A stretch of DNA of 64,000 nucleotides from Flavobacteriaceae bacterium (GTDB taxonomy: Bacteria; Bacteroidota; Bacteroidia; Flavobacteriales; Flavobacteriaceae), in NCBI GenBank assembly GCA_029243245.1, contig JAQWSK010000013.1:16025-80024 (forward strand), in the 5' to 3' direction. A program made the position numbers and the translations under genes. This document shows positions 22,197-46,267 of the stretch, in pieces (the first letter of the stretch is position 1; each line of letters begins with the position of its first letter). The notes under the pieces were generated by a model, which was not told the origin of the DNA, searched no databases, and saw nothing but the letters and a program-made list of their open reading frames with translations.

Positions 22197-23983
22197 AAAC
22201 AAAAGTAAGCGATGTTATTGCTAGGTTTCTAAAAGAAAAAAAAATTGAAGTAGTTTTTGGAATTATTGGGTCTGCAAATTCTCACATATTTGATTCAATA
22301 AATAACTTGGGTTTTACTCAGATTGTTAACACACACCATGAGCAGGTTGCTGTAATGGCAGCCGGAGCATATTTTAGATCATCTGGAAAACTTTCGGCAG
22401 CAATTGTGACTGCTGGGGCAGGAGCAAGTAATGCGATAACAGGGGTAATTAGTAATTGGGCAGATTCAACTCCATGTTTAATAATTTCAGGTCAAGAACC
22501 TATACGATATGTTAAAAAAAATGAATCTTTAAGAATGTATGGGACACAAGGATTTAACATTATAAAGATGATTAAAGATGTTGTTAAATACGGTGTTTCA
22601 ATTGCGGATCCAAAAGAGATCTATACAGAATTAAGTAAAATTTACAGGCATACAACCGAAGGAAGACCAGGACCATGTTGGGTAGATATTCCTTTTGATA
22701 TTCAAGGAAGATTTGTTGAAGATATTGATTTTCCTGTTTTTGAAGAAATTAATACTGAGTCATTTATGGATGAGGCTAAATCTGTAATTGAATCTTTAAA
22801 AAAAAGCAAAAGACCAGTAATATTGGGAGGGAATGGGATTAAACTATCTAACGGAAAATCAGAATTTCAAAAATTTACTAGTGCTATTAAAGCTCCTACT
22901 CTATTGACTTGGTCTGGAATAGATTTGTTAAATGATGACAATCCAGAATTTTTTGGAAGGTTTGGCATTTATGGTCAGCGATGTGCAAATTTTATTATAC
23001 AGAACTCTGATCTAGTTTTGGTCTTTGGAAGTCGTTTAGCTCTCCCTCAAATTGGTTATGATATTGGCCAGTTTGCAAGAAGCGCTAAAATAATTATAAT
23101 TGATATTGATGAGACAGAAGGTAATAAGTATGATGTTCATAAATTTATAGAAGCTGATTGTAAAACATTTTTAAATGATTTAAATACCTTGATAACGGGA
23201 ATGCTATTTGACTTTTCAAAATGGACAGAATATTGTTCAAAGTTAAAAATAGAATTTCCATTGATTGGAAAAGAACATGAAACAAAAGGTTATGAAAACT
23301 CCTACAAGTTTATAGACACTTTTTCTGATCTTTTAGGAAATGATGACATCATTGTTACTGATATGGGAACTGCTTTGCTCAGTGGTCACCAAGCAATAAA
23401 GCTGAAGTCAAATCAAATAATGTTTACTTCGCTTGGCCTTGGCGAAATGGGTTATGGATTAGCGGGAGCTATTGGAGCTAGTTTTGCGTGTCCAAGCCGT
23501 CAAGTGATTTGTTTGAATTGTGATGGTGGAATTATGATGAACCTTCAAGAACTACATACAATTGTTGAAAATAAACTTAAAATCAAAATTGTCATATTTA
23601 ATAATGATGGATATTTAATGATCAAACATACACAAAAAATGTTGTTCAAAGGAAATTATAATAGTGTTAATAAAAACACAGGGATAGGGCTTCCAAATTT
23701 TGAAAAATTATTACCCGCTTTCGGATATAACTACTATTGTTTTGACGAAAATGCTAGAGAGAATTCAATTACAGCATTTTTGGAAGATCCCAATCAGTCT
23801 GTTTTAGAGGTGTTTATGCATCCAGAACAGGGATTCTTACCTAAAGTTAAAGGAGTTTTAAATAACGATAACACTATTTTATCTCCTCCTTTAGAAGAAA
23901 TGTCACCAATTATACCCTTAGATCTTCTCAAAGAGAAGATGTTAATTGAATTAGATGATAAATCATATAAAATAAAAAGATGA
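22193..23983 (+). CDS. Thiamine-diphosphate-dependent enzyme, acetolactate-synthase large-subunit-like (YerE-like candidate)
   Basis: 596 aa. ThDP-binding motif region GLGEMGYGLAGAIGAS...CLNCDGGIMMNLQEL...IFNNDGY. ATGA overlaps at both ends. Confidence 0.8.
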   Translation: MKTKVSDVIARFLKEKKIEVVFGIIGSANSHIFDSINNLGFTQIVNTHHEQVAVMAAGAYFRSSGKLSAAIVTAGAGASNAITGVISNWADSTPCLIISGQEPIRYVKKNESLRMYGTQGFNIIKMIKDVVKYGVSIADPKEIYTELSKIYRHTTEGRPGPCWVDIPFDIQGRFVEDIDFPVFEEINTESFMDEAKSVIESLKKSKRPVILGGNGIKLSNGKSEFQKFTSAIKAPTLLTWSGIDLLNDDNPEFFGRFGIYGQRCANFIIQNSDLVLVFGSRLALPQIGYDIGQFARSAKIIIIDIDETEGNKYDVHKFIEADCKTFLNDLNTLITGMLFDFSKWTEYCSKLKIEFPLIGKEHETKGYENSYKFIDTFSDLLGNDDIIVTDMGTALLSGHQAIKLKSNQIMFTSLGLGEMGYGLAGAIGASFACPSRQVICLNCDGGIMMNLQELHTIVENKLKIKIVIFNNDGYLMIKHTQKMLFKGNYNSVNKNTGIGLPNFEKLLPAFGYNYYCFDENARENSITAFLEDPNQSVLEVFMHPEQGFLPKVKGVLNNDNTILSPPLEEMSPIIPLDLLKEKMLIELDDKSYKIKR

Positions 23984-24825
23984 TTAGGGCAGGAATTATT
24001 GGTACTGGAAATATAGGGACTGATTTGTTATTGAAATTAATAAAAACTGATTTTATAAATCTAGTAATATTTTCAGGCAGAAGATTAAATTCAAATGGCA
24101 TGAAAGTTGCCAAAAAAAATAACATCGAAATAACAGATACTGGAATTCAATTTTTCATTGATAATCCTAATTTTTGCGATGTGATATATGATTGTACAAA
24201 TGCGTTCGATGCTAAAAAACACGCTAGAATATTTGATAAACAGCAAATTAAAGTAATTGATTTAACCCCAGCTAAGGTTGGAGCTTTTAGCGTACCAAGT
24301 TTAAATATACCTATTAATGAAATGAATATAAATATGATAACATGTGGTGGTCAAGCATCAATTCCTTTATTACATTCAATCTCAAAACATTGTGATAAGT
24401 TATCTTATATTGAGGTTGTTTCACAAATTGCATCAGATAGTGCAGGTATGGCAACTAGACTTAATATTGATAATTATATAGAAACTACAGAGAATGCAAT
24501 TTTTCAATTTACCGGCACTGAAAAATGTAAAGTAATATTGAATTTGAACCCTGCTATACCACAAGTAGATATGCAAACAACAATGTTTGTTAAAGCCAAT
24601 AGTTTTGATTTTGAACCATTGGTAGGAAATATTTATGAAAAAATAATGGATCTCAGAAAATATATTTCTCATTATGAATTAGTTATGCCTCCCACTATAA
24701 ACAACAATATTTTGGTTTTAAGTGTAAGAGTTAAAGGAGCTGGTGATTACCTTCCCAAATATGCGGGGAATCTAGATATTATTAATTGTGCTGCTATTGA
24801 AGCGACAAAGAAAATGTATGAATGA
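23980..24825 (+). CDS. Acetaldehyde dehydrogenase (acylating), DmpF/MhpF family
   Basis: RAGIIGTGNIGTDLLLKL (NAD fold) and the catalytic-Cys motif MITCGGQASIPL. About 280 aa. Confidence 0.8.
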   Translation: MIRAGIIGTGNIGTDLLLKLIKTDFINLVIFSGRRLNSNGMKVAKKNNIEITDTGIQFFIDNPNFCDVIYDCTNAFDAKKHARIFDKQQIKVIDLTPAKVGAFSVPSLNIPINEMNINMITCGGQASIPLLHSISKHCDKLSYIEVVSQIASDSAGMATRLNIDNYIETTENAIFQFTGTEKCKVILNLNPAIPQVDMQTTMFVKANSFDFEPLVGNIYEKIMDLRKYISHYELVMPPTINNNILVLSVRVKGAGDYLPKYAGNLDIINCAAIEATKKMYE

Positions 24826-25831
24826 AATCATTATAACGGATTCTAGTCTAAGAGACGGAAACCATAGCGTAAAGCACCAAATTAGTTTAAAAAGCATCAA
24901 AAAGTATTGTCAATTTGCAGACAGTGCTAAAATACCAATTGTAGAGGTAGGACATGGTAACGGGTTAGGGGCTTCTTCAATACTTATTGGGGAATCTCCT
25001 TATTCGGATAAAGAAATATTATCTACAGCTCGAAAACATTTGATAAATTCAAAATTAGGTGTACATATTATTCCTGGCCTTGCTACAATAAGAAAAGATA
25101 TAGATCAAGCAATTGATTTAGGAGTAGATGTTTTTAGAGTTGCCTCTCATTGTACTGAAGCTACAATTACAAGGTCACACATTGAATATTTAAAAAAGAA
25201 TAACAAAACAGTCTTTGGAGTTTTAATGATGACTGCATTGACTGGTGTTAAAGAATTGGTTGTTAATGCTAAAATAATGGAAGATTATGGAGCAGAAGCA
25301 TTAATAATTATGGATTCAACAGGAACTTACCTCCCATATGATGTTGAAGAAAGAATCAGAGCTTTATCAGATAAATTATCAATTAAAATAGGTTTTCATG
25401 CACATAATAATTTGGGTATGTCTGTTTATAATTCAATAGTAGCCATTCAAAATGGGGCAACCTATATTGATGCATGCATAAGAGGATTCGGTGCTGGTGC
25501 TGGAAATACGCCGCTGGAAGTATTAGTCCCTGTAATGGAAAAATACAACTATCAATTAGACATTGATTTTAACTGTTTGATTAAAGAGGCAGACAATGTA
25601 ATGGAATATCTAATTCCAAGCACACCGCATATAAGCCCAGTAAATGTTCTTACAGGACTTAATCGTTTATTTTCTGGGTTTGAAAAACCAATAATACAAG
25701 CCTCTAAGATGAATAATTTGGAATATTCGTCTCTTATTTTTGAGTTGGGAAACCGAAAACTAGTTGCAGGTCAGGAAGATCTTATTCTTGAAATTGCTGA
25801 AAATTTTAAATCAGTAAGGAATAATGGTTAG
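24818..25831 (+). CDS. 4-hydroxy-2-oxovalerate aldolase-like (DmpG/MhpE, HMGL-like TIM barrel)
   Basis: IIITDSSLRDGNHSVKH and GFHAHNNLGMSV metal-binding motifs. I place the start at ATG 24818 (MNEIII), an 8-nt overlap with the dmpF-like gene, rather than the ORF-track start at 24788. Confidence 0.8.
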   Translation: MNEIIITDSSLRDGNHSVKHQISLKSIKKYCQFADSAKIPIVEVGHGNGLGASSILIGESPYSDKEILSTARKHLINSKLGVHIIPGLATIRKDIDQAIDLGVDVFRVASHCTEATITRSHIEYLKKNNKTVFGVLMMTALTGVKELVVNAKIMEDYGAEALIIMDSTGTYLPYDVEERIRALSDKLSIKIGFHAHNNLGMSVYNSIVAIQNGATYIDACIRGFGAGAGNTPLEVLVPVMEKYNYQLDIDFNCLIKEADNVMEYLIPSTPHISPVNVLTGLNRLFSGFEKPIIQASKMNNLEYSSLIFELGNRKLVAGQEDLILEIAENFKSVRNNG

Positions 25832-36952: not shown

Positions 36953-38208
36953 TCAAAATTATAAATATATCTACAACAAATAGAGGAGGTGCAGGAAACG
37001 CTGTTGATAGAATTAATAATATATTAAATCAATTTTCAGATTCATGGGTAATTTTATTAGCTGGAAAAAAGAAAGCCAAAACAGTAATTATTCCAAACTT
37101 TGATTTCTATTTTATTATAATTAAATTAAAAAGATATTTAACTCACTTTTATCATAGGTTTTTTTCAAGAAAGTATATTAAAAAATATAATTATTACAAT
37201 TACAATGAGTTTAATAATTATATCATTTCAAATAAATTAATAAAGTATTTTTCATTTAGTCCAGACATAATAATAGTTCATTATACATCACATTTTATAA
37301 ATTTTAAAACTATTTATGAGCTGCAAAAGCTGACTGGAGCTTTTATACTTTTTAACATGTTAGATACTGCTTTTTTGACCGGAGGTTGTCATTACTCGTG
37401 GGATTGTATTGGGTATACCAAAAGCTGTAAAAAATGCCCTGCATTGACTCGTAAATCAGAAACTAATTATTCTTTAGTTAACTTTCGAGAAAAATTAAAA
37501 TATCTTAAAAAAATTGATTATGCAATAAATGTATCTTCTTCATGGGCTTTAGATCAAGTAAAAATGAGTAGTCTTTTTGATATAAAAAAAGCTAGTTTAA
37601 TTTTTTATCCGATAGATGAAAAAATTTATAAGTCAAAAAAAATAGATTCTTTAATAGGGATTAGTAGTTTTAATAAAAAAATCATATTAGTTGGTTCCCA
37701 AGACTTGAATGATGAACGTAAAGGGGGAGAATATTTAGTTAAATCTTTGGATTATACATATGAATCTCTAAGTGAAAACAGAAGATCAGAAGTAATTGTT
37801 TTGATAGCTGGAACTAAACCGAAAAAATTTAAATGTAAATTTTCATATTACTTTTGTGGACATCTTAATACTAATGAGCTTATTGATGCTTATAATTTTG
37901 CAGATGTTTTTCTTTGCTCATCTATTGAAGATAATGGACCAATGATGATTAACGAATCTTTAATGTGTGGAACACCAGTTGTTTCTTTTGATGTAGGAAT
38001 CTCTGGCGATCTTATAAATAAAAGTAATGGGTTTATTGCAGAAAATAAAAACAGTATTGAGCTATCAAAAGGAGTTATACATGTTTTATTTAATAATAAA
38101 ACAAATAGTTTTTCAAAAGCTTCAAGAGAATTCGCTTTAAAAAATTACAATAATGAAAAAATTAAAAATGACTGGAAAAAACTTATTTATAACTTTATAA
38201 AAACGTAG
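36949..38208 (+). CDS. Glycosyltransferase, GT-B fold (GT4-like)
   Basis: C-terminal VFLCSSIEDNGPMMINESLMCGTPVVSFDVG. ATGA overlap with the upstream GT gene. Confidence 0.6.
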   Translation: MIKIINISTTNRGGAGNAVDRINNILNQFSDSWVILLAGKKKAKTVIIPNFDFYFIIIKLKRYLTHFYHRFFSRKYIKKYNYYNYNEFNNYIISNKLIKYFSFSPDIIIVHYTSHFINFKTIYELQKLTGAFILFNMLDTAFLTGGCHYSWDCIGYTKSCKKCPALTRKSETNYSLVNFREKLKYLKKIDYAINVSSSWALDQVKMSSLFDIKKASLIFYPIDEKIYKSKKIDSLIGISSFNKKIILVGSQDLNDERKGGEYLVKSLDYTYESLSENRRSEVIVLIAGTKPKKFKCKFSYYFCGHLNTNELIDAYNFADVFLCSSIEDNGPMMINESLMCGTPVVSFDVGISGDLINKSNGFIAENKNSIELSKGVIHVLFNNKTNSFSKASREFALKNYNNEKIKNDWKKLIYNFIKT

Positions 38209-38240
38209 TTTTGAAATTGTACAAAAAGCATTAATTAATT

Positions 38241-38879
38241 ATGGATGAAATTTTATTACAAGAAGATTTTGTTACAGAAGTGAATTATTTAAGAGTTTTA
38301 ATTGCTGTCGTTATATCTCTTATTTCAACTTATATTATTGAAAAAAATTATTTAAAATATTCTAATTCCAGAGAAAATAAGATATACTTCACCAGAAACT
38401 TATATCCATTTTCTCTGGCGATGTTATTAATAGTAATCACTATTAAGTCTTCCCTAGCATTATCTCTAGGTTTAGTAGGAGCCCTTTCAATAATTAGATT
38501 CAGAACAGCAGTTAAAGAGCCTGAACAACTCACTACATTGTTAATAATAATGGCTATATCAGTTTCATTAGCAGCAGAGAAGGAACTTTTAGGAATTATG
38601 TTTTTATTTATTTACATCATATTCTATCCAAGAAAGAAAGTAGATGCAATTTCAGCTAATTCAACTAATCAAATTCTACAAGTATCGTTTTTAAAGGATG
38701 ATAAATCAATAATTTCTAAAATTATGATCAATGATTTTTCTGATAAAATAAATAGAGTTTACAAGACTAAAGAAAAAATTATTATAGAATACACTGTTAC
38801 AGATAAAGCGTTATTCGAAGACATTTTAAATTACTTTAATAATAATTTGAAAATAGATATTGATTTTGAAATTTTTTAA
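38241..38879 (+). CDS. DUF4956-family membrane protein
   Basis: 4-5 TM segments with the family hallmark LVGALSIIRFRTAVKEPEQL. Confidence 0.7.
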   Translation: MDEILLQEDFVTEVNYLRVLIAVVISLISTYIIEKNYLKYSNSRENKIYFTRNLYPFSLAMLLIVITIKSSLALSLGLVGALSIIRFRTAVKEPEQLTTLLIIMAISVSLAAEKELLGIMFLFIYIIFYPRKKVDAISANSTNQILQVSFLKDDKSIISKIMINDFSDKINRVYKTKEKIIIEYTVTDKALFEDILNYFNNNLKIDIDFEIF

Positions 38880-38882
38880 ATC

Positions 38883-40394
38883 ATGAAAAAAAAATATATA
38901 ATATCAATTACATCTATTATTGTTTTATATTTTTTAGCCTTTACTTTTTTTTCAAACTACTATTCTAATGTTAAAAGTGATTTTTTGTGGAGACTTCCTG
39001 GGTTTAGTTATTTTGATAAAGTTTTTCAAAAAATTCCAACAAAAATTTTTTATTTTAATCCAGAATATACAAATAAAAAAAACGCTGATTTCATAGTTTT
39101 ATTTAGTGAAAATGATCAAAGAATAAATGATTCATTAATAAAGGTAGCAATTAATAACATTGAACTTTCTGATGATCAAAAAATTTACAGACAAGCCAAT
39201 GCAATTTTTAATAATCAAAAATTCAATATAAAGTACAAGTTTCATGGAACCTCAATCACGCCTTATTTGGATCATAGAAGGTTAAGCTACTCAATTAAGT
39301 CTCAAAATAAAATATTTGAAACAAAAGATTTTAAGCTTATAATTTCATATGAAATGGATTATAAAAATATTTTTTTAAATTATTTATCCAATGAGCTTGG
39401 TCTAATTTCTGAAGATTCGGGAAGAATTGTTTCAGTAAATTTAGGAAATAAGATTAATGATTATTTTATGTATGAGGATTTTGATAGATCATACATTAAA
39501 AAAAAATATGGATTTATAAACCCATTAGTTGTTCGAAATCTAACTTTTTATAATGAAGTTAATTCTCATTTTTCTGAAATTGATAAATATTCATATGATT
39601 TAGACTTAACCGAAATGTCATATGATTATTTTTTGAGATGGGATAAATTAAAATCACTTAGCTATTATAACTATTCCGATAAAGAAAAATTGATTTATGG
39701 TAATTTTTTAGCTTTCATATATTTTTTTGGAAATCCCCATCAAATAACAGGAAATAATGATAAGTGGATAATAACAAAAAATTATATATTACCTGTTTAT
39801 AGAAATGAAGGGGTTATTCAAGAATATAATTATGGATTAGATTCAAATTTTGATAATCAAGTTTTTGAAAATTATTTTTCAAGTAATACCCATAATGTGT
39901 ATAAACAATATGTGCTTGACGATGAAATCAGACATGAAAGAAATAAAAAACTATTTGAATTATATAAAAATGAAGATAAAATAATTGATATTTTTGATTC
40001 TATCTATAATGCAAATATTGATAAACATAAAAGGTATAATACTAATTATTTTAAAATAAAAAACAATCATTTTAATTATAAAAATATTATTTCTAAAAAC
40101 ACAAATAATATAAGTAAACACCTTAAAACAGGAAAAGTAATTTCTTTGTTAATTGAAGATACACTTAAAATATCAATGGAGTCATATATGAAAATGCATG
40201 TAAATGTAAATGATGAAATATATGATTATAATCCAATAAAACTTGAATTGAAAAACAATAAAATAATTTCAAAAAGAAAAGAGTTTAAGATTCACATAAA
40301 TAAAGAAATAAAAAAACTTGAAATTGTTAACAGAGTTACTAATGACACTTTAAAATTATCAGAAGATTTTAAACTTCTGGAAGTTTCAAAATAA
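38883..40394 (+). CDS. CotH-like (atypical kinase family) protein with an N-terminal membrane anchor
   Basis: Anchor IISITSIIVLYFLAFTFF. Core FKLIISYEMDYKNIFLNYLSNELGLISEDSGRIVSVNLGNKINDYFMYEDFDRSYIKKKYG follows the CotH pattern (K-x-sf-L..D.s.lre.la..l..G, NG.y.GlY.l.E). The match is by eye. Confidence 0.55.
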   Translation: MKKKYIISITSIIVLYFLAFTFFSNYYSNVKSDFLWRLPGFSYFDKVFQKIPTKIFYFNPEYTNKKNADFIVLFSENDQRINDSLIKVAINNIELSDDQKIYRQANAIFNNQKFNIKYKFHGTSITPYLDHRRLSYSIKSQNKIFETKDFKLIISYEMDYKNIFLNYLSNELGLISEDSGRIVSVNLGNKINDYFMYEDFDRSYIKKKYGFINPLVVRNLTFYNEVNSHFSEIDKYSYDLDLTEMSYDYFLRWDKLKSLSYYNYSDKEKLIYGNFLAFIYFFGNPHQITGNNDKWIITKNYILPVYRNEGVIQEYNYGLDSNFDNQVFENYFSSNTHNVYKQYVLDDEIRHERNKKLFELYKNEDKIIDIFDSIYNANIDKHKRYNTNYFKIKNNHFNYKNIISKNTNNISKHLKTGKVISLLIEDTLKISMESYMKMHVNVNDEIYDYNPIKLELKNNKIISKRKEFKIHINKEIKKLEIVNRVTNDTLKLSEDFKLLEVSK

Positions 40395-41983
40395 TGAAAA
40401 AGGTAATATTTTTTTGTTTGATAATTTGCCTGTGTTTAGGATGTGAGAATAGTAATAATTCGAAAGATAAATTTTTGAAATTTGATTTCAAAAACAAAAA
40501 TCTACATAAATTATTTTATGGTAATATTTATTATAAAGTAAATGGCTTTTCATCAACTTATAAAGGGGTAAAATACAGATTAAGTAAACCAAACAATTTT
40601 TTTATTTTGGAGTCTGAATTAAATGAGTTTAATAATAACAACAAAATTATTTTATTTGATGAGGATGTGGACTTTGAATTATACATACATGACTTGGATA
40701 CACTTAAAACTGAAAAATTAGTAATTGAATTTAACAATTATTTAAAAAAAACTTTTTCATATTTTCCTGTTTTTAGCTTAGAGTTTTTGGAAAAGGCTAA
40801 AAACAGAAACTCAAAAATTTATACAATTTCCAATGAAAAACTCGAACCTTTTTTCATTGATGATTTAAATTATCAATCTTTAGATGAGCTTAAGAGCATA
40901 AAGTTTTATAATAAAACATTAAAAAACTTGAAATCACTTGGCGCATTTAATTTATTTCCTAAATCATACTCAGATGTTTTTATAATTCACAACCCCATAA
41001 CAAATTATTATTCTTTATTTCCTGATATTAAAAATTTTAAAAACCTTAACAACAAATTATTATTTCCTGAATACTCAAAAAAAATAAATAAAATCGTTTT
41101 GAAAAAAAAATTGCATTTAAAAAATGATACAATTATTAAGAATGATTGGAAGGAGTCAAGCATAGACTTAACAGTTTCAAAGGGAGTTAAAATTATTCTT
41201 GAAAATAACGCCTCTATTTTTATAAAAAATTCAAATATTATTTTTGAGGGAGATTATAAAAATAATGTTGTTTTTTTTGCTAAGGGAACCAATTCCCTTT
41301 ATTTTGATAACATTTCTGATGCTAAAATTCTTTATACGAAGTTTCAAGGATTTAGCAACCTCAAGAATGATTCAATTGCTTTGCCTTCAGGAATAACATT
41401 TTATAATTCTAATGTTGAAATAAATCATTCTTTATTTTCAAATAATAAAAGAGGGGATGATTTTTTAAATTTGTATAATTCAGATTTCAACATTTCAAAC
41501 ACTACTTTTCAAAACGTTATTTCCGATGCAATAGATTCTGATTTTTCTAATGGCACTATACTGAACTCTAAATTTATTAATATAGGAAATGATGCTATTG
41601 ACTTAAGTGGGTCTAAAGTAATTGTAAAGCAAAATTTATTCAATAAAATAGGAGATAAATCTGTAAGTGCAGGAGAAAACTCAATATTGAAAGTAAAATC
41701 TAATACTTTTAAAAATTCTGAGCTCGGAATTGTGGTTAAAGATGGTTCCGAGGTGATATCAGAAAATAATATTTATAACTTTAATAAATTAGATATTGCA
41801 GTTTTTAGAAAGAAAAATTATTATGATCAGCCCATTTTAAAAATGAATGAAAATTTAAAAAGTCTCAAATATTTAATTCAAAACAAATCAAAAATAATTA
41901 GTAAATCTACAGATAGTATTATTTACACAAAAAAAGTTGAACAAAGACTTTATGGAAATGAATATGGAAAATCAAGTAACTAA
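40394..41983 (+). CDS. Lipoprotein with a right-handed parallel beta-helix (pectin-lyase-fold) domain
   Basis: Lipobox ICLCLGC. The C-terminal half has PbH1-like repeats NVISDAIDSDFSNGTILNSKFINIGNDAIDLSGSKVIVKQNLFNKIGDKSVSAG. Confidence 0.55.
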   Translation: MKKVIFFCLIICLCLGCENSNNSKDKFLKFDFKNKNLHKLFYGNIYYKVNGFSSTYKGVKYRLSKPNNFFILESELNEFNNNNKIILFDEDVDFELYIHDLDTLKTEKLVIEFNNYLKKTFSYFPVFSLEFLEKAKNRNSKIYTISNEKLEPFFIDDLNYQSLDELKSIKFYNKTLKNLKSLGAFNLFPKSYSDVFIIHNPITNYYSLFPDIKNFKNLNNKLLFPEYSKKINKIVLKKKLHLKNDTIIKNDWKESSIDLTVSKGVKIILENNASIFIKNSNIIFEGDYKNNVVFFAKGTNSLYFDNISDAKILYTKFQGFSNLKNDSIALPSGITFYNSNVEINHSLFSNNKRGDDFLNLYNSDFNISNTTFQNVISDAIDSDFSNGTILNSKFINIGNDAIDLSGSKVIVKQNLFNKIGDKSVSAGENSILKVKSNTFKNSELGIVVKDGSEVISENNIYNFNKLDIAVFRKKNYYDQPILKMNENLKSLKYLIQNKSKIISKSTDSIIYTKKVEQRLYGNEYGKSSN

Positions 41984-42587
41984 ATATAGGTCTGAATTAA
42001 AATATGTTTTTAAATCAAGTGAATACTCATTGATTAAAAATCAAATAATTAGTTATGGGTTTGAAAAGGCACATGATTATAATATTGTTAACAATATTTA
42101 TTTTGATTATAATCAAAATTCTTTGATAGATAATATTGAAGGTGAATCATTAAGAACAAAATTTCGAATTAGATGGTATAATGATTTTAATGGAAAGTGT
42201 ATATTTGAAAATAAAAGCAAAATTGGTAATTCTGGAACAAAAACTAGAATAAATCTTAAAATAAAAAATATTCAAGATGCCAATGAATTAAAAAAAAAGG
42301 TTAAACCTATAATTAATGTAAATAAATTTAAACCAAATATTCAAAATCGATACTTTAGAGAATATTTTATAAATAATGGGATTAGAATTACTCTAGATTC
42401 TAATATTAAGTACTTTAGATATGGAGAGTCAAACTTTAATATTTATGAACCTAAAAACATAATGGAAGTCAAGTTTGATAATCATGAAAGTTTTGAATTA
42501 GATTTTTTAAATAAAATAATTTATTTAAAACTTGACAAATATTCTAAATATTTAAATGCTATGAATCTTTTAAAAGTATATAATTAA
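41952..42587 (+). CDS. VTC-domain (polyphosphate-polymerase-like / triphosphate tunnel) protein
   Basis: YRSELKYVF...NNIYFDYNQNSLIDNIEGESLRTKFRIRWYND matches the bacterial VTC-domain pattern (E.KY..., YFD, K.RiR.Y). No signal peptide. The ORF track starts at TTG 41937; in-frame ATGs are at 41952, 41958 and 41964. Confidence 0.7.
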   Translation: MEMNMENQVTKYRSELKYVFKSSEYSLIKNQIISYGFEKAHDYNIVNNIYFDYNQNSLIDNIEGESLRTKFRIRWYNDFNGKCIFENKSKIGNSGTKTRINLKIKNIQDANELKKKVKPIINVNKFKPNIQNRYFREYFINNGIRITLDSNIKYFRYGESNFNIYEPKNIMEVKFDNHESFELDFLNKIIYLKLDKYSKYLNAMNLLKVYN

Positions 42588-42620
42588 AAAATTTAATTTT
42601 ATTCCTTAAAACTAATAAAA

Positions 42621-42752
42621 ATGATTTTATTTTATATTGATCCTGGTACAGGAATGATTATTATTCAGTTAATTGTTGCTGGGTTTGCAAGTGTCTTAAT
42701 TTTTTTTAAATCTATAAAACAAAAAATCAAAGATTTTTTTAAAAGAAAATGA
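42621..42752 (+). CDS. Micro-ORF (43 aa) encoding a single-TM peptide, translationally coupled to the downstream gene
   Basis: Not in the ORF track. My translation is MILFYIDPGTGMIIIQLIVAGFASVLIFFKSIKQKIKDFFKRK. Its TGA overlaps the ATG of the 456-aa ORF (ATGA at 42749-42752). Confidence 0.35.
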   Translation: MILFYIDPGTGMIIIQLIVAGFASVLIFFKSIKQKIKDFFKRK

Positions 42753-44119
42753 GAGATAAAGGTTCTTTTAGAGACCCTTCAGGGTATGTTTTTGTTGAAG
42801 ATGATAAAATTTATCGGTTAGTTAATAAATGTTATAAAGATAATTTTGAAAAACTTCAAGATTCTGGCCTATTGAAAGACCTTTTCCAGAAGGAACTTCT
42901 TGTAAGGCATGAAATTGTTAAATATTCCAAAAGTTATGATCAAAATCAATATTTAGTTTTAGATGTTGAGAAAATTAAAACAATCACATATGCATATGAG
43001 TGGTCATTCTCTCAACTTAAGGATGCAGCTTTAAGCACTCTTGAAATTCAATTAATCTCTGTAAGCAAGGGTATGACTTTAAAAGATGCTACCCCATTTA
43101 ACATTCAATTCAAAGAAAATAAACCAATTTTTATCGATACTTTAAGTTTTGAAGAAATTAAAGATGAAAATTATTCTTGGAAGCCATATAAGCAATTTTG
43201 TGAGAATTTTCTTTCACCATTAGTTTTAATGAGTTATACTGATCCAAGACTAAATAAAATTTTGATGAATGATATAAATGGAATACCAATAGATTTGTCA
43301 CTTAAGTTGATTCCCTTAATTAAGAAATTTATTCCTTCTATCTTTATTCATTTTGTTTTGCCCAGCCTTTTTACATCCAAAAAAAAATCTAATTCTGATT
43401 TAAAATCAAAAAAAATATCTAAAAGCCAACATTTAAGTATTATTAATCAATTAATTGATTTTATTAGTTCTCTTAAATTACACGACAGTCTAAGTGAATG
43501 GGGTGATTATTATAATGAAACAGTTAATGAAAAAAAAGATTATGTTATAAATAAAGAAAAATTATTAAAGTCATTTACAGAAGGTATGATTATTTCAACT
43601 ACTTGGGATATAGGATCAAACGATGGTTTTTTTAGTAGTGTAATAGCCAATTCATCTAATTCATATGTTTATTCCTTAGATATTGATTGGAGAAGTGTAG
43701 AGTATAATTATTTAAGAAATAAAAAAAATAAAACCAAAAACATTCATCCAATAATATTTGATTTTTCAAATCCTACTCCTGCCTTGGGATGGTTAAATAT
43801 AGAAAGAAAAAACCTTTTTGAAAGGCTTGACGAGCCAGATTTAATAATGTGCTTAGCTTTAATGCATCACGTAATTAATGCTAATATTCCTTTTGATCAA
43901 TTTATCAATTTTTTAAAAAAAACTAATAAATATGTTATCATTGAATACATTCCATTTAATGATCCAAAATGTCAAGAAATTTATAAAACTAGAAAAGAAG
44001 AAATTATATATCCAACAGAAAAAGAATTTATTAATTTGATTTCAGAATCTTTTAAAGTTATTTTAAAGGGGATAATTGAACCAACGGAAAGAAAACTTTT
44101 TTTAATTGAAAAAAAATAA
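42749..44119 (+). CDS. Two-domain protein: kinase-like N-domain fused to a class I SAM-dependent methyltransferase
   Basis: N-terminus GSFRDPSGYVF. Catalytic-loop-like LKDATPFNIQF (D-x4-N) followed by PIFIDTLSFE (DFG-equivalent Asp). The C-domain has TWDIGSNDGFFSSV (SAM motif I) and LIMCLALMHHV. Confidence 0.5.
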   Translation: MRDKGSFRDPSGYVFVEDDKIYRLVNKCYKDNFEKLQDSGLLKDLFQKELLVRHEIVKYSKSYDQNQYLVLDVEKIKTITYAYEWSFSQLKDAALSTLEIQLISVSKGMTLKDATPFNIQFKENKPIFIDTLSFEEIKDENYSWKPYKQFCENFLSPLVLMSYTDPRLNKILMNDINGIPIDLSLKLIPLIKKFIPSIFIHFVLPSLFTSKKKSNSDLKSKKISKSQHLSIINQLIDFISSLKLHDSLSEWGDYYNETVNEKKDYVINKEKLLKSFTEGMIISTTWDIGSNDGFFSSVIANSSNSYVYSLDIDWRSVEYNYLRNKKNKTKNIHPIIFDFSNPTPALGWLNIERKNLFERLDEPDLIMCLALMHHVINANIPFDQFINFLKKTNKYVIIEYIPFNDPKCQEIYKTRKEEIIYPTEKEFINLISESFKVILKGIIEPTERKLFLIEKK

Positions 44120-45470
44120 TAATTATTTTTTATCGCCATCTATTTTTATAGTTTTCTTACCATATTTTATGTTTTATTTTAATTATAAATTCTACATAGA
44201 AAATTTTTTAATTATTATTTCCATTTTTTTAATTGATAAATTTTTATATCAAAAACTCAAGTCAAATTATAAAATGTTAATTCTATTTATAATTAACATT
44301 TGTTTTTATTGTCTTAACGTTTATTATGATTCATTTTATATAATTCATGAGCTTAGACTAAGGTATTTTCTTTTATTATATTCTTTTACAACTTCTCTTT
44401 TTTATTTAATTATATACCTGAATAGAGATTTAATTAAAATTCATAATGTATTTTTTATAATTCTTTCAATAACCTATTTGTTTCGTTTTTCAATCGAATA
44501 TTATAATCAATTAAATTTTTCTAAAACAGAATTTCTGCAAAAAATCAAATTTAATTTTACAAAAATAAATTTGAGTGATACTGATTCAAATCATCCTATT
44601 TTATTAATTGTTTTAGACGAATATGCAGGGTCAAATGAAATATTCAACTATACTAATAATGATATTGACAAAGAATTTGATTCATCTCTTTTAGAAATGG
44701 ATTTTTTAATAAAGCCTGAATTTGAATCTAAAACAGAAAGAACAACTTTTTCTTTACCTTCTATTTTTAATTTTAATTTTCACAACAGTAAAATTGATAG
44801 TATCCAAAATTTAGATAAAGAATTTAAAAAGGTTAAAGGTTTTGATAATTTATTAGAAGACAACCTTTTAGTTGATTCATTAAATTCAAAAGATGTTAAG
44901 TCTTTTTCATATGGTTTAATGGCATTTAAAAATGGAGAACTTCCAGATTCAAATTTTTATTTCTGGTGGAATGATCAAAATCCCGATTTAAATTTCATAA
45001 GTGCCTTTTTTAGACATTCAATATTTTATTTTATTCAAAACGAATTTTTTAGAAAAAACACTTATATAGATTTATTTAGAAAAGATGCATTGAATAGTTT
45101 AGAAAAAGTTAGTTTTCAAAATCGTTCGTTTTATTATTTTCATTTGTATTTTCCACATGATCCATATTCATATTATGAAGAATACCCATATGTAGATTTA
45201 AATTACCCTATAATATCAGAAGAAAAATATCTTAATGAATATATTAAATACAGAAGATGGTTTTTGTCAAAGTTTGAGAAAATATTAAAAAATAAGAAGT
45301 TTGAAAATACAAGAATAATAATTGTAGGTGACCATGGATTTAGACATCATAAAGATTTCAACTCCTTAAACACGACTGGATATTTCAAAGGATTTAAAAG
45401 TGAAGATCTTGATAAGATTAAAAGCGTACAAGATTTAGGTTATTTGATTAACTCTTCGTTTAAAAAATGA
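44106..45470 (+). CDS. Polytopic membrane protein with an alkaline-phosphatase-superfamily (sulfatase/LtaS/EptA-like) domain
   Basis: About 5 N-terminal TM segments, then PILLIVLDEYAG, YFPHDPY and IIIVGDHGFRH (metal-binding motifs of the AP superfamily). The start is uncertain (TTG 44106 or ATG 44169). Confidence 0.6.
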   Translation: MKKNNNYFLSPSIFIVFLPYFMFYFNYKFYIENFLIIISIFLIDKFLYQKLKSNYKMLILFIINICFYCLNVYYDSFYIIHELRLRYFLLLYSFTTSLFYLIIYLNRDLIKIHNVFFIILSITYLFRFSIEYYNQLNFSKTEFLQKIKFNFTKINLSDTDSNHPILLIVLDEYAGSNEIFNYTNNDIDKEFDSSLLEMDFLIKPEFESKTERTTFSLPSIFNFNFHNSKIDSIQNLDKEFKKVKGFDNLLEDNLLVDSLNSKDVKSFSYGLMAFKNGELPDSNFYFWWNDQNPDLNFISAFFRHSIFYFIQNEFFRKNTYIDLFRKDALNSLEKVSFQNRSFYYFHLYFPHDPYSYYEEYPYVDLNYPIISEEKYLNEYIKYRRWFLSKFEKILKNKKFENTRIIIVGDHGFRHHKDFNSLNTTGYFKGFKSEDLDKIKSVQDLGYLINSSFKK

Positions 45471-46138
45471 CTACATCTAAAATATAATTCTGATCTTTCC
45501 AGATACTTAGGCTCATAAATTTCAACTTCTTGAAAATATTTTTTTAAAAAATTTGTCAATTCTTCTTTTGATTCAAACTCATATTTGTGATGAGATATTT
45601 TCTTATTGTCCTTTCTTCGTTTGACAGTCATACCTGTAAAAGATCCACTAGTCTTTAAAGATTTAGTTACTTTTAATAAAAAAGAGGGCATATTTTCCTT
45701 TTTAAAATATTGAATTACAGCATCAGCTATAATAACGTCATATTTTTTTTTGAAATCATATAGCATGAAATCATCACAAATAAATTTTATTTTTTTGGAA
45801 GTTTTATAATAAGATAATGCATGTTTTGAACTATCTACACAGTCAATAGATTTAACTGTGTTTGAATAAAAGAATTTTGAAAAAAAACCATCTCCCGAAC
45901 CTATTTCAAGAACAACATCTCCTGGATTAATTGATTTTATGTTATGAAAGCCACGTAGCATAAAAAAATAATTTTTATCTCTAATAGAAAGATAATTCAA
46001 GTCTATTTGGTGATTAAAAAACTTTGGGACGGGTTTAATATACCACTGAACATAATACAAGATTTTATAGAAAAAGAACGTCAGTTTTGAAAACAAGATT
46101 GAAAAAATATTGAGAAAAAATAAAAGGATTATCTTCAT
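45440..46138 (-). CDS. Class I SAM-dependent methyltransferase with an N-terminal TM segment
   Basis: VVLEIGSGDGFFSKFF (motif I) and VIIADAVIQYF. Only minus-strand gene inside the locus. I prefer ATG 46138 over the TTG at 46156. Its 3' end overlaps the convergent gene by 31 nt. Confidence 0.7.
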   Translation of the reverse strand: MKIILLFFLNIFSILFSKLTFFFYKILYYVQWYIKPVPKFFNHQIDLNYLSIRDKNYFFMLRGFHNIKSINPGDVVLEIGSGDGFFSKFFYSNTVKSIDCVDSSKHALSYYKTSKKIKFICDDFMLYDFKKKYDVIIADAVIQYFKKENMPSFLLKVTKSLKTSGSFTGMTVKRRKDNKKISHHKYEFESKEELTNFLKKYFQEVEIYEPKYLERSELYFRCSHFLNEELIK

Positions 46139-46267
46139 AACTTTGTTGAATTTCAAATAAGGACTAATTGTACAAATATATAGGTATCCAGGTTAATTAT
46201 TTTTATAAAGTACAACATAAAATAATTATTAAGTTTTAGTTTGTGTAAAAAATATTATTGAAAAAAA

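What the first reader, a model, noticed from the sequence alone, without database searches (positions are those of the whole stretch)
38241..45470. Phosphate-chemistry module (DUF4956 + CotH-like kinase + beta-helix lipoprotein + VTC domain + kinase-like::methyltransferase + AP-superfamily transferase) embedded in a glycan operon
Seen: seven same-strand ORFs are packed with 0-3 nt gaps or overlaps (38879/38883; TAATG at 40392-40396; the VTC start overlaps the beta-helix gene; ATGA at 42749-42752; overlap at 44106-44119). Motifs are listed in the features: DUF4956 hallmark IIRFRTAVKEPEQL, CotH-like core behind a membrane anchor, lipoprotein with PbH1 repeats, and a VTC pattern (ELKY...YFD...KFRIRWY) with no signal peptide. 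There is also a D-x4-N/IDT kinase-like domain fused to a methyltransferase, and a polytopic protein with AP-superfamily motifs (LDEYAG, GDHGFRH). Established: CotH family members are atypical protein kinases (Bacillus spore coat). The VTC domain is the catalytic triphosphate-tunnel of the yeast Vtc4 polyphosphate polymerase, which works coupled to a membrane channel. LtaS/EptA/OpgB-type AP-superfamily enzymes add phospho-substituents on the outer face of the inner membrane. To my knowledge no function is assigned to the bacterial VTC/DUF4956/CotH gene trio. Inference: the predicted topology spans the envelope. A cytoplasmic VTC protein plus membrane DUF4956 could synthesise polyphosphate and thread it outward. 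That would give the anchored, extracytoplasmic CotH-like kinase a phosphoryl donor in an ATP-free compartment. The position inside a glycan operon, next to a phosphotransferase-type enzyme and several methyltransferases, suggests phosphorylated or methyl-phosphorylated glycan or surface-protein products. Campylobacter O-methyl phosphoramidate is a precedent for methylated phosphate decorations.
Basis: partly seen in the sequence, partly recalled or inferred. Interest (0 to 1): 0.75.

Follow-up and report, generated by a model that had tools for sequence, protein, structure and literature searches.

The report
Envelope polyphosphate/CotH-like cassette in glycan locus
A marine flavobacterium's surface-sugar gene cluster carries a widely conserved but uncharacterised four-gene cassette: a yeast-type polyphosphate polymerase, a membrane protein, an unusual kinase-like enzyme outside the cytoplasm and a sugar-binding lipoprotein. 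It may be how bacteria phosphorylate surface glycans where there is no ATP.

Summary
The ORFs, junctions and most domain calls are real. The seven genes are two independent conserved modules, not one.

**Module A (38241-42587)** is DUF4956, a CotH-like protein, a beta-helix lipoprotein and a VTC protein.
- Of 49 reference-genome loci with enough flank around a VTC relative, 46 have DUF4956 and 38 have the CotH-like/beta-helix protein. Three more have a canonical CotH.
- Their neighbours are mostly glycan-synthesis genes.
- In most relatives the CotH-like and beta-helix parts are one fused 850-1030 aa protein. The window has a rarer split form.
- The VTC protein keeps all nine Vtc4 catalytic residues, including the Lys that separates active Vtc4 from inactive Vtc2/3.
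- The CotH-like protein is invisible to Pfam but is recovered by predicted fold and by profile searches.
- Family-wide it has His where CotH has its catalytic Asp, plus extra conserved basic residues.
- Predicted topology spans the envelope.

**Module B (42621-45470)** is a 43-aa membrane peptide, a putatively kinase-like::methyltransferase and an AP-superfamily membrane enzyme. It recurs elsewhere without module A.

The trio of module A was already described beside Gram-positive pel operons, with no function assigned. The polyphosphate-donor model is plausible but untested. The S. intermedius VTC deletion had no phenotype, which argues against it.

The parts
38241..38879 (+). Module A: DUF4956 inner-membrane protein (212 aa). 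It has several TM helices, the near-invariant KSSLALSLGLVGALSI(I/V)RFR(A/T)A(I/V)KEPE core, and a roughly 80-aa C-terminal soluble domain.
   Evidence: Pfam DUF4956, E 8.8e-9. Hydropathy segments at 10-35, 54-85 and 99-128. A 35-sequence alignment shows the invariant core. It lies next to VTC in 46 of 49 loci. No PDB relative by profile search.
38883..40394 (+). Module A: membrane-anchored, extracytoplasmic CotH-like kinase-fold protein (503 aa) with a C-terminal Ig/FN3-like beta-sandwich. It has His286 at the CotH catalytic-Asp position, with N292 and R307-N308-E309.
   Evidence: No Pfam or NCBIfam hit. AF2 model pLDDT 82. Foldseek best hits 5jd9/5jda at E 7e-9, plus Ig-like hits for the C-terminus. 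Family profile against 5jd9_A gives E 4e-10. hhalign 97.5%. Active-site alignments. Single TM at 4-25 behind MKKK.
40394..41983 (+). Module A: right-handed beta-helix lipoprotein (529 aa). It is the split-off counterpart of the C-terminal half of the fused CotH::beta-helix proteins.
   Evidence: No Pfam hit on the protein itself. BLASTP up to 5e-27 to the Beta_helix/NosD-positive C-terminal domains of the fusions. Signal peptide plus conserved lipobox Cys17 in the homologues.
41937..42587 (+). Module A: cytoplasmic VTC-domain triphosphate-tunnel protein (likely start ATG 41952, 211 aa) with the complete Vtc4 catalytic residue set.
   Evidence: Pfam VTC, 86.6 bits. No TM or signal segment. The profile hits Vtc4 3g3q_A at E 1e-10. 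Aligned pairs are K17=K200, R72=R264, R74=R266, K88=K281, Y134=Y359, R136=R361, E172=E426 and S198-K199=S457-K458. All are invariant in 35 bacterial sequences.
42621..42752 (+). Module B: conserved 43-aa single-TM peptide (YIDPGTGMIIIQL...), translationally coupled to ORF5 through an ATGA overlap.
   Evidence: ORF. Near-identical peptides precede ORF5 homologues in L001, L096 and (more diverged) Electrothrix L097.
42749..44119 (+). Module B: cytoplasmic two-domain protein (456 aa). The N-domain carries a kinase-type K-D-x4-N...I-D motif. The C-terminal domain is a class I SAM methyltransferase.
   Evidence: Weak Pfam Methyltransf_31 hit. More than 7,600 homologues across bacteria and archaea; 100% identical to an NCBI Flavobacteriaceae MAG protein. 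Invariant residues. AF2 pLDDT 92. Foldseek finds SAM methyltransferases, WbdD and one protein kinase. The N-domain alone has no Pfam or PDB sequence hit.
44106..45470 (+). Module B: polytopic (5 TM) AP/sulfatase-superfamily enzyme with LtaS/EptA/OpgB-like architecture. The start may be Met22 at about 44169.
   Evidence: Pfam Sulfatase, 26.0 bits against a cut-off of 25. Weak sulfatase alignment over the HxP and GDHG motifs. TM segments within residues 7-130. The homologue in L096 is 35% identical, E 3e-68. Alternative start.

Best explanation
The region holds two conserved modules that lie side by side inside a large surface-glycan locus of a low-GC marine Flavobacteriaceae genome.

**Module A (38241-42587)** is an envelope-spanning phosphate-transfer cassette.
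1. The cytoplasmic VTC protein is a Vtc4-type triphosphate-tunnel enzyme. It most likely polymerises polyphosphate from ATP. (The residue set is shown; the activity is inferred.)
2. VTC is genetically locked to the DUF4956 inner-membrane protein. DUF4956 most likely docks the polymerase and passes or presents its product at the outer face. (Inferred.)
3. On the outer face sit an N-in/C-out anchored CotH-like kinase-fold enzyme and a beta-helix lipoprotein. In most relatives these two are a single polypeptide.
4. The beta-helix is proposed to hold the nascent glycan made by the surrounding locus.
5. The CotH-like domain has His in place of the catalytic Asp and carries extra conserved basic residues. 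It is proposed to transfer phosphate, or a polyphosphate stretch, from polyphosphate rather than from ATP onto the glycan.

**Module B (42621-45470)** acts independently.
- It consists of the small DPGTG peptide, the kinase-like::methyltransferase and the AP-superfamily membrane enzyme.
- It probably adds another phospho-type substituent to an envelope component.
For: **Anatomy (shown):**
- Domain identities.
- Topology.
- Fusion of the CotH-like and beta-helix parts in most relatives.

**Co-inheritance (shown):**
- The same four genes occur in a Pelagibacterales MAG at only 38% identity, inside a different sialic-acid/capsule-type locus.
- They also occur in a JGI contig carrying Wzy, glycosyltransferases and Bac_transf, and in cultured Lutimonas halocynthiae.
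- Of 49 GTDB loci with at least 5 kb on both sides of a VTC relative, 46 have DUF4956, 38 have the CotH-like/beta-helix protein and 37 have both.
- Three of the remaining loci have a canonical Pfam CotH protein with secreted-type domains directly after DUF4956-VTC.

**Glycan context (shown):**
- The window's flanks are glycan genes.
- Among 108 immediate neighbours in 19 dereplicated loci, the commonest families are GT1 (11), sugar-nucleotide epimerases/dehydratases (9), GT4 (6), Bac_transf (5), GT2 (5) and Wzx (4).

**Polymerase competence:**
- All nine residues shown by mutagenesis to be needed for Vtc4 polyphosphate synthesis are invariant in the bacterial family.
- This includes K458, which is lost in the inactive Vtc2/3 (bioRxiv 10.1101/2023.01.27.525886).

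**Active but altered kinase-fold enzyme:**
- His occupies the catalytic-Asp column in 176 of 182 aligned family members, and Asn292 in 177.
- R307, E309, K119, K139, H229 and R353 are conserved where Bacillus CotH has W, Y, V, Y, N and E.
- Strong conservation at active-site positions argues against a decayed pseudokinase.
- The added basic residues fit a polyanionic donor. (Inference.)

**Established knowledge:**
- The periplasm lacks ATP.
- CotH is distantly related to Fam20 secretory kinases (PMC7821199, citing Nguyen 2016).
- From my own knowledge, some Fam20-type kinases phosphorylate glycans.
Against: - No biochemical evidence exists for any member.
- In S. intermedius, deleting the VTC homologue gave no aggregation or Pel phenotype. 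Deleting the CotH and DUF4956 homologues changed Pel levels in opposite directions (PMC12345266). This is not expected if CotH depends on VTC-made polyphosphate.
- DUF4956 has no detectable similarity to the yeast VTC channel or to any solved structure. The bacterial VTC protein has no TM segment or SPX domain.
- The active-site mapping rests on sequence alignments. hhalign and MAFFT agree on His286. Only MAFFT and hmmalign place the R-N-E segment on CotH's W-D-Y; hhalign puts the P-W-D-Y-D segment elsewhere, at low confidence. No structural superposition was possible.
- About 8 of 49 loci have DUF4956-VTC with no CotH-type neighbour found. The pair can therefore work without it.
- The acceptor could be a protein rather than a glycan.
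Confidence: 0.4

Rival explanations
1. Polyphosphate itself is the product. DUF4956-VTC exports or presents polyphosphate at the cell surface. The CotH-like::beta-helix protein is then a non-kinase binder or ligase that captures the chain and tethers it to the glycan layer. The result would be a polyanionic, cation-binding coat.
For: - The DUF4956-VTC pair is the most constant element: 46 of 49 loci, and it sometimes occurs without any CotH.
- The catalytic Asp is replaced, and the conserved basic residues could simply bind polyphosphate.
- The beta-helix and Ig-like domains are typical binding modules.
Against: - His, Asn and Glu or Asp are conserved exactly at the catalytic positions of the kinase fold. 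That looks catalytic.
- There is no evidence for surface polyphosphate in these taxa.
Confidence: 0.2
2. The CotH-like protein is an ATP-dependent protein kinase that regulates or modifies proteins of the glycan machinery or surface proteins, as proposed for the pel-linked CotH. VTC and DUF4956 serve phosphate homeostasis or signalling and do not supply a donor.
For: - Canonical CotH is a Ser/Thr protein kinase (PMC7821199).
- The published hypothesis for the Gram-positive trio is regulatory phosphorylation (PMC7112168).
- In S. intermedius the VTC deletion does not phenocopy the CotH deletion (PMC12345266).
- DUF4956 was described there as MgtC-like with an ACT domain, which is a regulator-like architecture.
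Against: - The domain lies outside the cytoplasm, behind an N-terminal anchor, where ATP is not available.
- The catalytic Asp is His throughout the clade.
- Obligate fusion or pairing with a carbohydrate-type beta-helix points to a glycan substrate.
- Tight three-way synteny across phyla is hard to explain if the parts are functionally unlinked.
Confidence: 0.15
3. The bacterial VTC protein is not a polymerase but another triphosphate-tunnel enzyme, such as a triphosphatase, or a cyclase-like or pyrophosphate-forming enzyme. Together with the ACT-domain membrane protein it senses or regulates glycan production.
For: - From my own knowledge, the TTM superfamily includes triphosphatases and cyclases.
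- No SPX domain or VTC-type TM region is present.
- Inorganic pyrophosphatase is among the immediate neighbours in 2 of 19 loci.
Against: - The protein matches Pfam VTC over the whole model.
- It retains every Vtc4 polymerase residue, including the Vtc4-specific K458 equivalent.
Confidence: 0.15
4. The seven genes form one pathway that makes a methyl-phosphorylated glycan, with ORF5 and ORF6 working together with the CotH/VTC genes.
For: - The genes are tightly packed on the same strand in the window and in L001.
- WbdD is a precedent for kinase plus methyltransferase capping of an O antigen (PMC3482155). WbdD also appears among the Foldseek hits for ORF5.
Against: - ORF5 and ORF6 homologues are absent from all other cassette loci.
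- The small peptide, ORF5 and ORF6 recur as a unit without module A and outside glycan loci.
- The methyltransferases that follow VTC in other loci are unrelated to each other.
Confidence: 0.05

Closest known systems
cotH / polyphosphate-polymerase / DUF4956 accessory genes of Gram-positive pel operons (S. intermedius SIR_1594/1593/1592; Whitfield 2020, PMC7112168; PMC12345266)
   Same: - The same three protein families sit together next to exopolysaccharide genes.
- CotH is secreted and followed by a beta-sandwich domain. VTC is cytoplasmic. DUF4956 is a multi-TM protein with a C-terminal soluble domain.
- The function is unknown there too.
   Different: - This is a Gram-negative host, and the locus is not a pel locus.
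- Those authors reported not finding the arrangement outside pel.
- A beta-helix partner is present instead of DUF4832.
- The CotH-like domain falls below Pfam detection and has His at the catalytic Asp position.
- The gene order differs: DUF4956, CotH-like, beta-helix, VTC.
Yeast VTC complex (Vtc4 catalytic subunit with Vtc1/2/3 membrane channel)
   Same: - A Pfam VTC triphosphate-tunnel domain with all nine catalytic residues.
- Obligate genetic pairing with a membrane protein. This suggests synthesis coupled to a membrane.
   Different: - There is no SPX domain and no TM segment on the catalytic protein.
- The membrane partner, DUF4956, is not detectably related to the VTC1/DUF202 helices.
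- Translocation is unproven.
Bacillus CotH spore-coat Ser/Thr kinase (PDB 5JD9/5JDA)
   Same: - An atypical kinase fold, and the best structural match.
- N-lobe sequence homology.
- The Asn of the catalytic loop is conserved.
   Different: - The catalytic Asp (D228) is replaced by His.
- The W-D(251)-Y-D segment is replaced by R-N-E.
- Extra conserved Lys, Arg and His residues are present.
- The protein is membrane-anchored and extracytoplasmic.
- It is paired or fused with a beta-helix.
- It gives no Pfam CotH hit.
WbdD, the bifunctional kinase-methyltransferase that caps the E. coli O9a O antigen (PMC3482155)
   Same: - ORF5 combines a class I SAM methyltransferase with a domain carrying a kinase-type D-x4-N...D motif.
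- It lies in a glycan locus.
- WbdD is among the top Foldseek hits.
   Different: - The domain order is reversed and there is no coiled-coil.
- The kinase fold of the N-domain was not demonstrated.
- The family also occurs outside glycan loci.
LtaS / EptA / OpgB-type membrane-anchored AP-superfamily transferases
   Same: - ORF6 has five N-terminal TM helices followed by a sulfatase-fold domain.
- It has the metal-ligand motifs (LDEY..., GDHG) and a candidate Thr nucleophile before S-L-P-S-I-F.
   Different: - The Pfam score is only marginal.
- No close characterised relative was found.
- Donor and acceptor are unknown.
- It is coupled to a small peptide and to ORF5, not to module A.

Membership tests
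CotH kinase family (Pfam PF08757) | Match to the Pfam CotH model above the gathering score | tested here: not met
   ORF2 gives no CotH hit even at E<=10. Distant fused relatives do pass: P0242 at 41.9 bits and P0173 at 30.5 bits.
CotH kinase family (Pfam PF08757) | CotH-type atypical kinase fold, or profile-level homology to solved CotH | tested here: met
   Foldseek to 5jd9/5jda: E 7e-9, prob 1.0, TM 0.6. Family profile against 5jd9_A: E 4e-10. hhalign: 97.5%.
CotH kinase family (Pfam PF08757) | Catalytic Asp (B. subtilis D228) in the catalytic loop | tested here: not met
   His286 aligns to this Asp in both hhalign and MAFFT. His occupies the column in 176 of 182 aligned family members. D228 is essential in CotH (PMC7821199).
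CotH kinase family (Pfam PF08757) | Metal-binding Asp (D251) of the P-W-D motif | tested here: inconclusive
   The window has P-V-Y-R-N-E. Either N308 or E309 aligns with D251, depending on the alignment. Other clade members keep F-D. A structural superposition is needed.
CotH kinase family (Pfam PF08757) | ATP-dependent Ser/Thr protein kinase activity | not testable with these tools
   A biochemical assay is required.
Vtc4-type polyphosphate polymerase (Pfam VTC, PF09359) | Match to the Pfam VTC model above the gathering score | tested here: met
   86.6 bits against a cut-off of 23, covering model positions 2-234 of 235.
Vtc4-type polyphosphate polymerase (Pfam VTC, PF09359) | Catalytic tunnel residues K200, R264, R266, K281, Y359, R361, E426, S457 and K458 | tested here: met
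   The aligned equivalents are K17, R72, R74, K88, Y134, R136, E172, S198 and K199. All are invariant in 35 bacterial homologues. The residue list comes from bioRxiv 10.1101/2023.01.27.525886. The C-terminal part of the HMMER alignment (E426, S457, K458) is low-scoring.
Vtc4-type polyphosphate polymerase (Pfam VTC, PF09359) | SPX domain and VTC1-type TM helices forming the polyphosphate channel | tested here: not met
   ORF4 is 211-216 aa with the VTC domain only and no hydrophobic segment. The DUF4956 profile finds no yeast VTC chain in the PDB at E<=10.
Vtc4-type polyphosphate polymerase (Pfam VTC, PF09359) | Synthesis of polyphosphate from ATP | not testable with these tools
   An in vitro assay is needed.
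DUF4956 (PF16316) | Match to the Pfam model above the gathering score; hallmark RFR(A/T)A(I/V)KEPE core | tested here: met
   35.7 bits against a cut-off of 30.6. The invariant core is seen across 35 sequences.
Right-handed beta-helix (Pfam Beta_helix PF13229 / NosD) | Match to the Pfam model | tested here: not met
   ORF3 has no Pfam hit. It is homologous (BLASTP 5e-27) to domains that do pass Beta_helix/NosD in the fused relatives. A JGI homologue has a weak Beta_helix hit.
Bacterial lipoprotein | Signal peptide ending in a lipobox Cys | tested here: met
   The N-terminus MKKVIFFCLIICLCLGC has its Cys conserved after the hydrophobic segment in the L001, L004, L012 and L014 homologues. No dedicated predictor was available.
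pel-associated cotH/VTC/DUF4956 accessory cluster | The three families are adjacent | tested here: met
pel-associated cotH/VTC/DUF4956 accessory cluster | Contiguity with pelDEADAFG genes | tested here: not met
   The neighbours are GT1, GDP-mannose dehydratase, DegT, FkbM, GT2, rml genes and an ABC exporter. No pel families appear.
WbdD-like kinase-methyltransferase | Class I SAM methyltransferase domain | tested here: met
   Foldseek gives E about 1e-7 to many SAM methyltransferases, including WbdD. Pfam Methyltransf_31 is below its cut-off (20.1 against 27).
WbdD-like kinase-methyltransferase | Protein-kinase-like domain with catalytic D-x4-N and metal-binding D | tested here: inconclusive
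   K112, D113, N118 and D130 are invariant. The secondary-structure order is compatible with a kinase fold. Only one kinase hit was listed (ROCK1, E 2.4e-6, rmsd 19 A). The N-domain profile has no PDB or Pfam hit.
LtaS/EptA/OpgB-type AP-superfamily transferase | Sulfatase/AP fold domain preceded by about 5 TM helices | tested here: met
   Pfam Sulfatase, 26.0 bits against a cut-off of 25. Five hydrophobic segments within residues 7-130. Weak sulfatase alignment over the HxP and GDHG motifs.

The most novel reading that the evidence does not exclude
Module A would be the first bacterial counterpart of the eukaryotic VTC machine.
- A Vtc4-like polymerase docks on DUF4956 and feeds polyphosphate across the inner membrane.
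- There a new clade of CotH-fold enzymes, with His in place of the catalytic Asp, uses polyphosphate instead of ATP to phosphorylate or polyphosphorylate surface glycans held by the attached beta-helix.
- This would be an ATP-independent extracytoplasmic glycan kinase system, widespread in Bacteroidota and present in SAR11-type plankton.
Probability: 0.2. Interest if true: 0.9.

Novelty: new variant of a known kind. Interest (0 to 1): 0.68.

Why it matters
If the model holds, it would answer how bacteria carry out kinase-type chemistry in a compartment without ATP. It would also establish a bacterial VTC-type polyphosphate polymerase distinct from PPK1 and PPK2. And it would reveal a new phosphate decoration route for O-antigens and capsules in abundant marine and gut Bacteroidota.

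Without any biochemistry, this analysis already does the following:
- It extends the pel-linked trio to Gram-negative, non-pel glycan loci.
- It shows that the usual partner is a CotH::beta-helix fusion.
- It defines a family-wide Asp-to-His active-site change.
- It names cultured hosts in which the system can be tested: Lutimonas halocynthiae CECT 8444, Flagellimonas flava DSM 22638 and Agaribacillus aureus.
- It separates out a second, very widespread and unstudied module: the DPGTG peptide, the kinase-like::methyltransferase and the AP-superfamily enzyme.

Tried and rejected
- **Direct family searches.** Pfam and NCBIfam scans of ORF2 and ORF3 found nothing, even at E<=10. PDB sequence searches found nothing useful with ORF2's close-family profile, P0242, ORF4 alone or ORF1 alone.
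- **RNA and regulatory signals.** Rfam found no RNA family in the window. The promoter and terminator scan was uninformative in this AT-rich DNA: 95 promoter-like sites found against 91 expected.
- **Organism.** An early idea that the window is SAR11 came from the naming of the ORF2 hits. It was dropped after ORF5 proved 100% identical to a Flavobacteriaceae MAG protein.
- **A methyltransferase as a conserved fifth member of module A.** Rejected. The methyltransferases after VTC in different loci are unrelated, and none appears among the 25 commonest neighbour families listed, apart from two FkbM-type proteins.
- **DUF4956 as MgtC-like.** Only a faint Pfam MgtC hit (E 0.58) in one homologue, so not used as evidence.
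- **DUF4956 related to the yeast VTC channel.** No PDB hit.
- **ORF5 N-domain.** Its profile found nothing in the PDB or Pfam.
- **Nguyen et al. 2016 (CotH structure paper).** Not held in the library. The catalytic residues were taken from PMC7821199 instead.
- **Unused resources.** The third homologous-protein search, the metagenome scan, the viral scans and the third fold search were not needed.

Full report
**What is in the window**

- The window is AT-rich. GC is 0.22-0.23 across 38-46 kb, against about 0.30 elsewhere.
- Between 14 kb and 52 kb almost every gene is on the + strand and belongs to a surface-glycan locus. The families found are:
  - UDP-glucose dehydrogenase and an MsbA/PglK-type ABC exporter;
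  - nucleotidyltransferases, 4,6-dehydratases and three DegT aminotransferases;
  - FkbM and other methyltransferases, and a polysialyltransferase-like protein;
  - GDP-mannose dehydratase with an epimerase, two GT1 and one GT2 glycosyltransferases;
  - the rml genes (by synteny with L001).
- ORF5 is 100% identical to an NCBI protein from a "Flavobacteriaceae bacterium" MAG. The same arrangement appears on 110-166 kb marine metagenome scaffolds.

**Checking the observation**

- The ORFs and junctions are as described.
- There is one caveat. The ORF5/ORF6 overlap needs a TTG start, and gene callers prefer Met22.
- Pfam confirms DUF4956, VTC and, marginally, Sulfatase.
- Neither Pfam nor NCBIfam sees CotH in ORF2 or Beta_helix in ORF3.

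**ORF2 is a divergent CotH-like protein**

- ORF2 has only 18 word-index relatives, none with a Pfam domain.
- An AlphaFold2 model built on them (pLDDT 82, pTM 0.84) has B. cereus CotH 5jd9/5jda as its only strong PDB matches (E 7e-9, prob 1.0). It also shows a C-terminal Ig/FN3-like sandwich.
- A profile search of 1.84 billion cluster representatives found just 289 relatives.
- Many of these relatives are 800-950 aa.
  - Eight of ten scanned carry Pfam Beta_helix, five of them also NosD, at the C-terminus.
  - Four hit Pfam CotH, two of them above the cut-off.
- The enlarged family profile hits CotH 5jd9_A at E 4e-10 over the N-lobe. hhalign against three canonical CotH proteins gives 97.5% probability.

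**ORF3 is the split-off beta-helix half**

- ORF3 residues about 220-500 match the beta-helix halves of the fusions (BLASTP to 5e-27).
- The window therefore has a split version of a protein that is usually fused.
- ORF3 homologues keep a lipobox Cys. ORF2 has a single N-terminal TM helix behind MKKK. ORF4 has no hydrophobic segment.

**Active site of the CotH-like clade**

- B. subtilis CotH needs D228 and D251 (PMC7821199).
- Canonical CotH reads NFD-GFVH-N ... IPW-D-YD. ORF2 reads NPH-QITGN-N ... PVYR-N-E.
- hhalign and MAFFT both put His286 on the catalytic Asp.
- A census of 192 family members gives these counts:
  - the catalytic-Asp column is His in 176 of 182 aligned sequences;
  - Asn292 is conserved in 177;
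  - 123 have Glu at the 309 column, and 38 have Asp at the 308 column.
- K119, K139, H229, R307 and R353 are conserved where Bacillus CotH has V, Y, N, W and E.
- CotH proteins that sit next to VTC in Verrucomicrobiota keep the canonical Asp and pass Pfam CotH at 79-94 bits.
- This pattern points to a functional, chemically altered enzyme rather than a decayed pseudokinase. The exact mapping of the R-N-E segment still needs a structural superposition, which I could not do.

**The VTC protein**

- A 35-sequence bacterial profile hits yeast Vtc4 (3g3q_A, E 1e-10) and Vtc2.
- The printed alignment places K17, R72, R74, K88, Y134, R136, E172, S198 and K199 on Vtc4 K200, R264, R266, K281, Y359, R361, E426, S457 and K458.
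- All nine are invariant in the bacterial family.
- The cryo-EM study of yeast VTC shows that these residues are required for polyphosphate synthesis. It also shows that K458 is the one residue lost in the inactive Vtc2/3 (bioRxiv 10.1101/2023.01.27.525886).
- The alignment of the last three residues is low-scoring in HMMER. However, the Pfam match spans the whole model.
- There is no SPX domain and no TM region.

**DUF4956**

- Its core, KSSLALSLGLVGALSI(V/I)RFR(A/T)AIKEPEEL, is almost invariant across phyla.
- Its profile finds nothing in the PDB, including the yeast VTC membrane subunits.

**Co-inheritance of module A**

- The order DUF4956, CotH-like, beta-helix, VTC recurs in:
  - a close relative (L001);
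  - a Pelagibacterales MAG at 38% identity, inside a NeuB/CMP-sugar/capsule-type locus;
  - a JGI contig with Wzy, glycosyltransferases and Bac_transf.
- The fused form lies directly after DUF4956-VTC in L011.
- A scan of one genome per GTDB species with a VTC alignment gave 465 confirmed relatives, of which 80 loci were kept.
- With local HMMs, I examined the 49 loci that have at least 5 kb on both sides.

| Feature near the VTC relative | Loci (of 49) |
|---|---|
| DUF4956 within 6 kb | 46 |
| CotH-like/beta-helix protein within 8 kb | 38 |
| Both | 37 |

- Three of the remaining loci have a canonical CotH fused to LTD, CHB_HEX_C and Fn3_assoc domains, or to an arylsulfotransferase domain.
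- The hosts are mostly Bacteroidota, but also Verrucomicrobiota, Planctomycetota, Bdellovibrionota, Bacillota and others.
- Immediate neighbours in 19 dereplicated loci are dominated by glycan-synthesis families.

**Module B is separate**

- ORF5 belongs to a very large family, with more than 7,600 hits across bacteria and archaea.
- ORF5 and ORF6 homologues are absent from all other cassette loci.
- The trio of a 43-aa YIDPGTG peptide, ORF5 and a sulfatase-family protein occurs on its own among housekeeping genes in L096. A rearranged form occurs in Electrothrix.
- The ORF5 model is confident (pLDDT 92).
  - Its C-domain is a class I SAM methyltransferase, with WbdD among the top hits.
  - Its N-domain has invariant K-D-x4-N and I-D motifs.
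  - Only one listed kinase match supports a kinase fold, and there is no sequence-level link to one.

**Literature**

- The cotH, polyphosphate-polymerase and DUF4956 genes were reported as accessory genes of Gram-positive pel operons (PMC7112168).
- They were then studied in S. intermedius (PMC12345266).
  - Deleting the CotH and DUF4956 genes altered Pel levels and aggregation.
  - Deleting the VTC gene did not.
  - The authors stated that they could not find the arrangement outside pel loci.
- Only five held papers mention DUF4956, and none assigns a function.

**Interpretation**

- *Shown:* the anatomy, the predicted topology, the fusion of the two outer-face parts, the co-inheritance and the glycan context.
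- *Inferred:* that the VTC protein makes polyphosphate, that DUF4956 passes it outward, and that the CotH-like/beta-helix pair uses it to modify the glycan.
- I rate this model at about 0.4. It explains four things:
  - the three-way synteny;
  - the extracytoplasmic location of a kinase-fold enzyme;
  - the added basic residues;
  - the carbohydrate-type partner domain.
- The S. intermedius data and the lack of any biochemistry weigh against it.
- The rivals are polyphosphate as the final surface product, a regulatory protein kinase, and a non-polymerase TTM enzyme. All remain open.

**Verdict**

- Part of its interpretation does not hold. The genes form two modules, not one, and the trio has been reported before.
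- It is best filed as a new variant of a described but functionally unassigned gene cluster: Gram-negative, non-pel, split, with His in the active site.

Noticed in passing
window 38000-46000: GC falls to 0.22-0.23 here, against about 0.30 in the rest of the window. Module A of this Flavobacteriaceae genome is closer to the copy in a Pelagibacterales MAG (phmmer E 4e-83) than to the copy in the flavobacterium Lutimonas (E 6e-43). This suggests lateral transfer among marine plankton, or mis-binning of the MAG.
   Followed up: partly
window 42621-45470; L096 5873-8731; L097 3787-7389: A second conserved module: a 43-aa YIDPGTGMIIIQL membrane peptide, a 455-aa kinase-motif::SAM-methyltransferase and a 5-TM sulfatase-family enzyme. 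It occurs without module A, even among housekeeping genes. The family is very large and apparently unstudied.
   Followed up: partly
L093 110-2633: In one metagenome variant of the same genome, the VTC gene is split into 42-aa and 180-aa ORFs, and the ORF2 gene is truncated. This could be a frameshift, pseudogenisation or an assembly error.
   Followed up: no
window 22193-25831: A TPP-dependent enzyme, an acetaldehyde dehydrogenase and an HMGL/DmpG-like aldolase sit inside the glycan locus. This hints at an unusual branched or acylated sugar pathway.
   Followed up: no
L064 11548-15009: A CotH domain is fused to an arylsulfotransferase (ASST) domain directly next to DUF4956-VTC. From my own knowledge, ASST is a periplasmic, nucleotide-independent group-transfer enzyme, so this is an interesting parallel.
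   Followed up: no
L040, L061, L070, L080, L083: Some genomes carry two CotH::beta-helix paralogues, or two whole cassettes, within 20 kb.
   Followed up: no
L019, L051, L084, L090 (Lewinellaceae); L067, L072 (Bdellovibrionaceae): DUF4956-VTC pairs occur with no CotH-type neighbour detected. In L019 the pair lies among sugar-nucleotide genes, next to a DUF4910/M28-like protein and a T9SS-secreted beta-helix protein. In L072 an MMPL/RND-type transporter precedes the pair.
   Followed up: partly
window 45440-46156 (- strand): This is the only minus-strand gene in the block, a Methyltransf_25-type SAM methyltransferase. Its mechanical ORF overlaps the end of ORF6, but gene callers give a shorter 173-aa product.
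   Followed up: no
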